Translations under genes and position numbers: made by a program
Shown here: piece by piece, positions 61,120-61,366 of the stretch
How the letters are laid out: the number at the start of each line of letters is the position of its first letter
Numbering within the stretch: position 1 is the first letter of the stretch
Notes under the pieces: model-generated
Seen by the model: only the letters and a program-made list of their open reading frames with translations
Told to the model about the DNA's origin: nothing
Database searches by the model: none
NCBI GenBank assembly: GCA_964016885.1
Contig: CAXHJY010001747.1
Coordinates: 171,219 to 235,218 of the forward strand
Direction of reading: 5' to 3'
From: Eledone cirrhosa
Taxonomy: Eukaryota
Length of the DNA stretch: 64,000 nucleotides

Positions 61120-61366
61120 TATATTAGGATTAGTGCTCTGAAATGTATACATGAATTTATGTATAGTATATTTGGCAATATACCGTAAGCTTAATTAAAA
61201 ACATTTAGAAGTCCATACGGTCTGATGAACGCCAACCAGCGTGAAACAGACTGTCAGCTTCTCTCCCTTCTTTCGCCGAAAAGAAGTGACATAATCACTA
61301 CTTTAAAACTGATGCGTATGGTCCTCTAAATATTTTAAATTAAACATACGGTATATTGCCAATATA
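61120..61366 (+). mobile_element. Family C element with an inverted 5' arm abutting a hammerhead core
   Basis: 61165-61219 is the reverse complement of 61315-61366. The body matches 36735-36895. TA flanks. Confidence 0.68.
61219..61259 (+). ncRNA. Hammerhead ribozyme core (type I, short stem III; stem I disrupted by the inversion)
   Basis: CTGATGA-ACGC(CAACCA)GCGT-GAAAC-AGACT-GTC: all conserved core nucleotides plus a GUC cleavage triplet. Confidence 0.75.

What the first reader, a model, noticed from the sequence alone, without database searches (positions are those of the whole stretch)
61120..61366. Intact CUGAUGA/GAAAC/GUC hammerhead core sitting at an inversion junction
Seen: CTGATGA-ACGC(CAACCA)GCGT-GAAAC-AGACT-GTC at 61222-61255. 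The inverted copy of the element's 3' end stops about 2 nt before CTGATGA and replaces the 5' strand of stem I. The relative at 36735-36780 retains stem I (GGCT/AGCT) and has a different but still pairing stem II (GCAT/ATGC). Inference: the structure is conserved across the family, and the RT switches template at the ribozyme.
Basis: partly seen in the sequence, partly recalled or inferred. Interest (0 to 1): 0.72.

Follow-up and report, generated by a model that had tools for sequence, protein, structure and literature searches.

The report
Two-armed hammerhead retrozyme insertion, decayed copy
This is one worn copy of a 312-base jumping repeat that carries a self-cutting RNA motif and sits in thousands of places in this animal genome; its mirror-image layout was likely made by a Penelope-type enzyme copying a predicted small RNA circle from both sides of a DNA break, and across copies the two halves do not meet preferentially at the self-cutting motif's core.

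Summary
The motif is real and sits where stated. It is the core of a type I hammerhead in a ~312-nt non-coding repeat (1,971 exact hits of one 24-mer). Structure is conserved, including a C3-G8 to U3-A8 core covariation. This copy has lost stem I and is predicted inactive.

The claim that RT switches at the ribozyme fails here. In 100 unbiased junctions, ends are not enriched at the CUGAUGA start (8 vs 6.0 expected) or the cut site (3 vs 5.9). One hot spot lies 5-35 nt downstream of the cut.

The outer ends are fixed at +129 or +164, one of each in 64 of 75 inverted pairs. That is the Penelope-like 35-nt tail. A young relative (19,352 hits) forms head-to-head multimers: 12 of 12 with one end of each kind, 6 of 6 with identical units in both arms. 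This fits double priming on one circular RNA.

Verdict: new member of the metazoan non-LTR retrozymes, mobilised Penelope-style. This scan noted the same layout before, in another genome (e1-10332749) and in a 470-nt family here (e1-8802526).

The parts
61122..61219 (-). Inverted arm: monomer positions 61-164 counted from the cut site; ends at the distal (+164) site
   Evidence: L001 1401-1498
61122..61150 (-). PLE-type tail (monomer 130-164; 6-nt deletion in this copy), present on this arm only
61220..61221 (.). Head-to-head junction. GT is either filler or a remnant of the stem I 5' strand with a small deletion (ambiguous)
61222..61255 (+). Type I hammerhead core, stem II, stem III and GUC site (predicted cut after 61255); stem I partner lost, predicted inactive in cis
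61256..61290 (+). Stem I 3' strand and its extension, with a near-palindrome; covers most of the family's junction hot spot (+5..+35)
61222..61383 (+). Forward arm: monomer 279-312 then 1-129; ends at the proximal (+129) site, last ~20 nt blurred into (AT)n
61088..61111 (-). Detached 24-nt fragment of the same repeat (monomer ~44-67) outside the left end; origin unexplained
   Evidence: (I17)
36600..36957 (+). Diverged relative, ~1.1 monomer with 30-nt terminal redundancy at 328-nt spacing; U3-A8 core at 36739-36776, stems I and II intact

Best explanation
The locus is an old two-armed insertion of a ~312-nt non-coding hammerhead repeat (a non-LTR retrozyme), likely made when a Penelope-like RT/endonuclease cut an (AT)n site and primed from both DNA strands on one predicted circular RNA. 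One primer would start at +129 and the other at +164 after the cut site. The two cDNAs would run round the circle and be joined at their leading ends, often by 1-7 nt of microhomology. SHOWN: family, unit length, covarying hammerhead, two fixed outer ends with one of each per pair, microsatellite targets, read-through of the cut site, no junction excess at the core, and identical multimer arms in the young relative. INFERRED: self-cleavage and circularisation, the PLE enzyme as mover, double priming, a single template molecule. This copy's junction falling 2 nt before CUGAUGA is most likely chance; it removed stem I.
For: Copy number 1,971 + 694 + 123 exact 24-mer hits. Period 312-316 with circular permutation. 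Covariation: 85.1% of cells paired vs 80.3+-0.6 shuffled (0/500) and 35-50% when slid; 14 of 19 pairs change on both sides. N3:N8 is CG 145, UA 26, other 13 of 184. Outer ends at +129 or +164, one of each in 64 of 75 classifiable pairs, p 1.5e-10. 224 of 277 such ends abut AT/AC/CAT repeats. 59 of 200 arms exceed one unit. The partner arm is among the closest 5% of copies in 39 of 77 pairs. Young relative, 67% identical: 12 of 12 inverted loci have one end of each kind; 6 of 6 loci with whole units in both arms have identical arms; 72 of 74 units equal their arm's majority; 8 haplotypes in 10 loci; up to 11 units per arm. RT+GIY-YIG elements are abundant. PMC11167929 shows a PLE protein cutting and extending both strands and starting RT at two adjacent sites that bound the 30-40 nt tail.
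Against: No RNA, cleavage or circle was observed. No autonomous partner sharing this family's ends was found among 35 PLE loci or in the 5' flanks of the sampled copies (output was cut). The focal arms differ at 11 of 71 columns and share no variant (rank 0.87), so one template is not shown for this locus. 25 of 100 junctions have a non-canonical outer end and 11 of 75 are A-A or B-B. In the focal family only 5 loci have two exact cores in tandem and only 10 of 175 arms pass a second cut site. The first stem II pair is unpaired in 37 of 61 rows. The predicted minimum-energy fold of an intact copy is an alternative hairpin ~8 kcal/mol below the hammerhead fold. Covariation counts are not corrected for relatedness.
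Confidence: 0.78

Rival explanations
1. RT switches template at the ribozyme core or cut site, so the focal junction is ribozyme-directed.
For: The focal junction is 2 nt from CUGAUGA; 1 of 24 young-subfamily ends is at the same place. The hot spot has a sharp lower edge at +5, just after the cut: first-pass stop rate 30/148 at +5..+35 vs 9/157 and 7/118 in the flanking windows. A minority of templates may therefore be self-cleaved linear RNAs.
Against: No excess at the core, the CUGAUGA start or the cut site; 0 of 24 young ends within 5 nt of the cut. Simulated junctions are mapped without bias: 40 true vs 41 mapped in +5..+35, 91% within 5 nt. HHR mutants do not change PLE insertion in vitro (PMC11167929).
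Confidence: 0.07
2. One priming event, then the cDNA folds back on itself and copies its own strand, giving the mirror arm.
For: Arms share variants. 43 of 100 junctions show microhomology. Both ends fall in the palindromic +5..+35 stretch in 10 junctions (permutation p 0.008).
Against: A fold-back copy should end at the same priming site and be no longer than its template. Ends differ by the 35-nt tail in 64 of 75 and 12 of 12 pairs, and the tail-less arm is the longer one in 36 of 64. Junction pairs do not follow predicted helices overall (10 vs 12.7 in permutations).
Confidence: 0.12
3. The template is a linear multimeric transcript, or arrays grew after insertion by unequal crossover (the satellite model in the 2026 preprint); no RNA circle is needed.
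For: Most focal-family arms are under 1.5 units (median 211 nt). A homogeneous source array would also give identical arms.
Against: Dispersed young arrays are each uniform across both inverted arms yet differ between loci (8 haplotypes in 10 loci), which points to a one-unit bottleneck. Crossover would not explain fixed A/B ends. The focal family shows no pile-up at any candidate transcription start, unlike the PLE pseudo-LTR family.
Confidence: 0.13
4. These are solo pseudo-LTRs of an autonomous Penelope-like element, not an independent retrozyme.
For: PLE-type tail, inversions and (AT)n targets. The young relative's core shares 26 of 28 nt with a PLE pseudo-LTR hammerhead.
Against: The unit closes on itself with no ORF. 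No sampled copy runs into a shared ORF-bearing flank. Stem III is not the palindromic minimal PLE type.
Confidence: 0.05

Closest known systems
Metazoan non-LTR retrozymes (Cervera and de la Pena 2020, PMC7229834: passages and whole Discussion seen; Li, Clavereau, Pollet 2026, bioRxiv 10.64898/2026.07.22.740005: parts 1-3 of 5 seen, supplements not seen)
   Same: Non-coding ~300-nt low-GC repeat with one canonical type I hammerhead per unit, monomers to multimers, co-occurring with PLEs; circle-templated cDNA is proposed there.
   Different: Here insertions are two-armed, head-to-head, with two fixed ends 35 nt apart. The 2026 preprint has no 'tail' or 'head-to-head' in its main text and the 2020 paper has no 'head-to-head'. 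Expression and cleavage are untested here.
Penelope-like element insertion anatomy (Craig et al. 2021, PMC8557442, passages; Frangieh et al. 2024, PMC11167929, parts 1-2 of 4)
   Same: Inverted 5'-truncated copy at the 5' end, 30-40 nt tail often on one end only, (TA)n targets, two adjacent RT start sites downstream of the hammerhead, cleavage dispensable for insertion.
   Different: No ORF here. The in vitro study saw no strand difference in start site, whereas paired arms here use different sites (64 of 75; 12 of 12).
PLE minimal hammerheads with U3-A8 core (Cervera and de la Pena 2014, PMC4209133, passages)
   Same: The U3-A8 covariation and the extra or variable nucleotide at the base of stem II.
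   Different: This family has a 3-bp non-palindromic stem III and a long bulged stem I, so it is the canonical form, not the minimal one.
Rfam Hammerhead_HH9 (RF02275, clan CL00010)
   Same: Core, loop 2 and bulged stem I align over the full model in an intact copy.
   Different: 25.6 bits against a gathering score of 52, so not a member; HH9 is not a dispersed repeat (recalled).

Membership tests
Type I hammerhead ribozyme (family level) | CUGANGA / GAAA / NUH core with three pairing stems and closed stems II and III | tested here: met
Type I hammerhead ribozyme (focal copy) | Stem I can form | tested here: not met
   1 bp; hammerhead-constrained fold -1.7 vs minimum -21.6 kcal/mol
Type I hammerhead ribozyme (family level) | Self-cleavage after NUH | not testable with these tools
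   needs an assay
Non-LTR retrozyme | 170-400 nt non-coding low-GC unit with one type I hammerhead | tested here: met
   312-316 nt; young relative 310-311 nt, GC 0.35
Non-LTR retrozyme | Tandem dimers to multimers | tested here: met
   5 exact tandem cores in the focal family, 59 of 200 arms over one unit; up to 11 units per arm in the young relative
Non-LTR retrozyme | Expressed as linear and circular monomer RNA | not testable with these tools
   no RNA data could be examined
Non-LTR retrozyme | Target-site duplication over 4 bp when present | tested here: inconclusive
   2 of 4 non-microsatellite loci have 9-13 nt repeats; the rest lie in microsatellites
PLE-mobilised element | Inverted 5' copy, 30-40 nt tail at one end, (TA)n targets | tested here: met
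PLE-mobilised element | Sequence shared with the pseudo-LTR of an autonomous PLE | tested here: inconclusive
   none for the focal family in 35 PLE loci; a 26/28-nt core match for the young relative only
Autonomous PLE | RT plus GIY-YIG ORF | tested here: not met
   the 312-nt unit closes on itself and no shared ORF-bearing flank was found
Rfam HH9 | Score at or above 52 bits | tested here: not met
   18.1 and 25.6 bits

The most novel reading that the evidence does not exclude
This genome records the retrozyme insertion step that was so far only proposed. A Penelope-type dimer primes both target strands on one circular hammerhead RNA, one subunit at each of two start sites 35 nt apart, and rolls round it to lay down palindromic multimers. 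Junctions mark the RNA's 5' end when there is one (capped transcription start in a PLE pseudo-LTR family: 47 of 76 ends, extra G in 4 of 4) and scatter round the unit when there is none. A 19,000-unit young subfamily offers a ready substrate to test this.
Probability: 0.6. Interest if true: 0.6.

Novelty: new member of a known kind. Interest (0 to 1): 0.38.

Why it matters
The locus itself is a predicted-dead repeat copy. The family matters modestly. How retrozyme circles enter the genome, and how PLEs make their inverted, one-tailed insertions, are stated open questions (PMC7229834 Discussion; PMC8557442; PMC11167929). The paired-end rule and the identical two-armed multimers give a sharp, testable model and name a young substrate. 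I did not find this described in ten searches of the held library, which lacks most subscription papers; supplements were not read. Earlier notes of this scan had already reached a similar reading on other DNA, so this report adds counts, not the idea.

Tried and rejected
The window-wide Rfam scan showed only simple-repeat miRNA matches in the 150 of 247 rows displayed. Pfam PF26215 is not in the library. A DNA search with the young unit returned nothing, probably because very common words are skipped; a 24-mer pattern then found 19,352 hits. An apparent spike at +29 and a cluster at 278-282 in the first mapping were partly alignment stops at subfamily indels, so ends were re-mapped against other copies; two over-extended cases (L079, L231) were set back before counting. 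The '+137' end is really +129 extended into (AT)n. A shared flank in L064/L096 first looked like a partner element; it is a ~490-nt insertion inside the repeat. Candidate TATA-defined starts in the focal family (257, 274) show no pile-up. An 'off' hairpin between the core and stem III pairs in 89.6% of cells but has only 6 two-sided changes and uses conserved core bases, so selection for it is not shown. Pfam gave no meaningful hit for the ORF after the second family's pseudo-LTR; its PLE status rests on a weak match to an RT+GIY-YIG ORF (E 5e-4) and a YIG motif. A sequence look-up in earlier findings was blank.

Full report
Observation. Alone the core is not above chance in the window (2 hits, 0.43 expected, 6 of 100 shuffles), and Rfam HH9 matches weakly (E 0.039). 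The window lies in a 3.0-Gb animal genome, G000:C1774.

The family. The forward arm has 2,701 first-look candidates, the best 93-96% identical. One 24-mer from its 3' part occurs 1,971 times and two natural variants 694 and 123 times; 90 places hold an exact 41-nt intact ribozyme. Copies define a circularly permuted 312-316 nt unit. Intact copies carry a canonical type I hammerhead with proximal stem I, a bulge and a longer distal stem, and one matches all 77 HH9 positions at E 8.9e-5, below the gathering score. I aligned 60 of 70 cluster representatives (10 near-duplicates or copies with large indels left out) plus the window relative. 85.1% of cells pair, against 80.3% shuffled (0 of 500) and 35-50% when slid; 14 of 19 pairs change on both sides. 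Core positions 3 and 8 are C-G in 145, U-A in 26 and other in 13 of 184 copies; U3-A8 is a published natural variant (PMC4209133, passages). Against: the first stem II pair is open in 37 of 61 rows, the counts are not corrected for descent, and an alternative hairpin is the predicted minimum fold.

The focal copy. The junction leaves 1 bp of stem I, and the hammerhead-constrained fold is 20 kcal/mol above the minimum fold. It is predicted inactive in cis.

Breakpoint test. I took 202 loci chosen only by a 24-mer at unit positions 87-110: all of the first 100 rows, most of the first 100 rows and the first 30, mainly contig C1. After removing duplicates they gave 311 segments and 100 head-to-head junctions. 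Ends were refined against other copies. Observed vs expected of 200 ends: cut site +-5 nt 3 vs 5.9; CUGAUGA start +-5 8 vs 6.0; core 13 vs 19.4; whole ribozyme 41 vs 35.2; +5..+35 after the cut 45 vs 21.6, scan p 0.002-0.025. Simulated junctions show no mapping bias there (40 true, 41 mapped of 340), though the donors were copies that align through that region. 131 of 200 arms cross the cut site and 59 exceed one unit. The focal junction's position is therefore unremarkable. The hot spot lies on a palindrome and the 3' strand of extended stem I. I cannot tell stalling or fold-back there from run-off on a minority of self-cleaved templates.

What is fixed. Outer ends sit at +129 or +164, one of each in 64 of 75 classifiable pairs (6 A-A, 5 B-B; 25 more have one odd end; p 1.5e-10). 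The focal locus obeys the rule. 224 of 277 such ends abut microsatellite. Arms tend to share variants (partner in the closest 5% in 39 of 77), though the focal arms do not. This is the PLE signature: an inverted 5' copy, a 30-40 nt tail on one end and (TA)n targets (PMC8557442, passages). A purified PLE protein cuts and extends both strands, starts at two adjacent sites that bound the tail, is predicted to be a dimer and does not need hammerhead cleavage (PMC11167929, parts 1-2 of 4). The genome is rich in RT+GIY-YIG elements (10,597 candidates, 150 scored), but no partner sharing this family's ends was found among 35 examined.

A young relative. A 310-311 nt unit, 67% identical to the focal reference with ends at the homologous places, has 19,352 exact 24-mer hits. 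I fetched all 13 clusters in the first 100 rows. 12 are head-to-head, and 12 of 12 have one end of each kind. In 6 of 6 with whole units in both arms the arms are identical, 72 of 74 units equal their arm's majority, and 10 loci carry 8 haplotypes; arms reach 11 units. Of 24 junction ends, 0 are within 5 nt of the cut and 1 is at the CUGAUGA start; two junctions are complex (gaps of 153 and 18 nt) and one arm has a short unit. Uniform arrays that differ between loci point to a one-unit template copied round and round from two primers (inference).

A contrast. A second hammerhead family (2,966 hits) precedes a PLE-like ORF. In 64 distinct loci of 66 fetched, 47 of 76 junction ends lie at -8..+3 of CUGAUGA and 1 of 76 near its cut. 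A TATAAATA box lies 30 nt upstream of position -6, and 4 of 4 readable ends at -6 carry a G where the template has C, as expected from copying a cap (the cap-G reading is recalled from L1 work).

Comparison and verdict. The element meets the testable features of metazoan non-LTR retrozymes (PMC7229834, passages and Discussion; 2026 preprint, parts 1-3 of 5) and inserts like a PLE. Circle-templated tandem cDNA and PLE mobilisation are proposed in those papers. I did not find the two-armed, paired-end footprint in ten searches; supplements were not seen. Earlier notes of this scan give a like reading for another genome and for a 470-nt family here; I saw them after my own tests and they are not independent support. 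New member of a known kind; interest 0.38.

Noticed in passing
G000:C1, L402-L414 (e.g. C1:1239000-1245200); L133:63-763: Young 310-311 nt relative with 19,352 hits, in dispersed palindromic multimers with identical units in both arms; its core shares 26 of 28 nt with the second family's hammerhead.
   Followed up: partly
L302-L371; ORF in L332:1201-3478: Second hammerhead family (GUA site), pseudo-LTR of a PLE-like element; junctions pile up at a predicted capped start 6 nt before CUGAUGA; its two outer ends are ~75-80 nt apart, longer than the usual tail.
   Followed up: partly
window 29105-29622: Head-to-head insertion of a third hammerhead repeat (core at 29471) matching the 3' UTR of the PLE in L285/L290/L294; tail on one arm, multi-step junction about 50 nt upstream of the core.
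   Followed up: partly
L267-L274, L278, L298, L299, 3' UTR: PLE family with a CX4CXXC linker and a minimal U3-A8 hammerhead with palindromic stem III; stem II is GCAT/ATGC as in the window relative.
   Followed up: partly
window 61088-61111: Detached 24-nt piece of the same repeat beyond the left end, roughly continuing where the inverted arm stops; abortive priming or an older remnant.
   Followed up: partly
L064:1515-2271; L096:1490-1965: ~490-nt insertion inside the repeat at unit position ~78, starting TC and ending in a hairpin plus CTAG, like a non-autonomous Helitron (features recalled).
   Followed up: no
window 1-21700: Long G-skewed (about +0.5) repetitive tract with many long stop-free frames.
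   Followed up: no
window 34817-34849, 36573-36605, 58024-58050: Another short repeat family abutting the relative at 36600.
   Followed up: no
L272:511-636: Weak (70%) match to the repeat's priming region ending in (AT)n; possibly a more distant retrozyme family.
   Followed up: no
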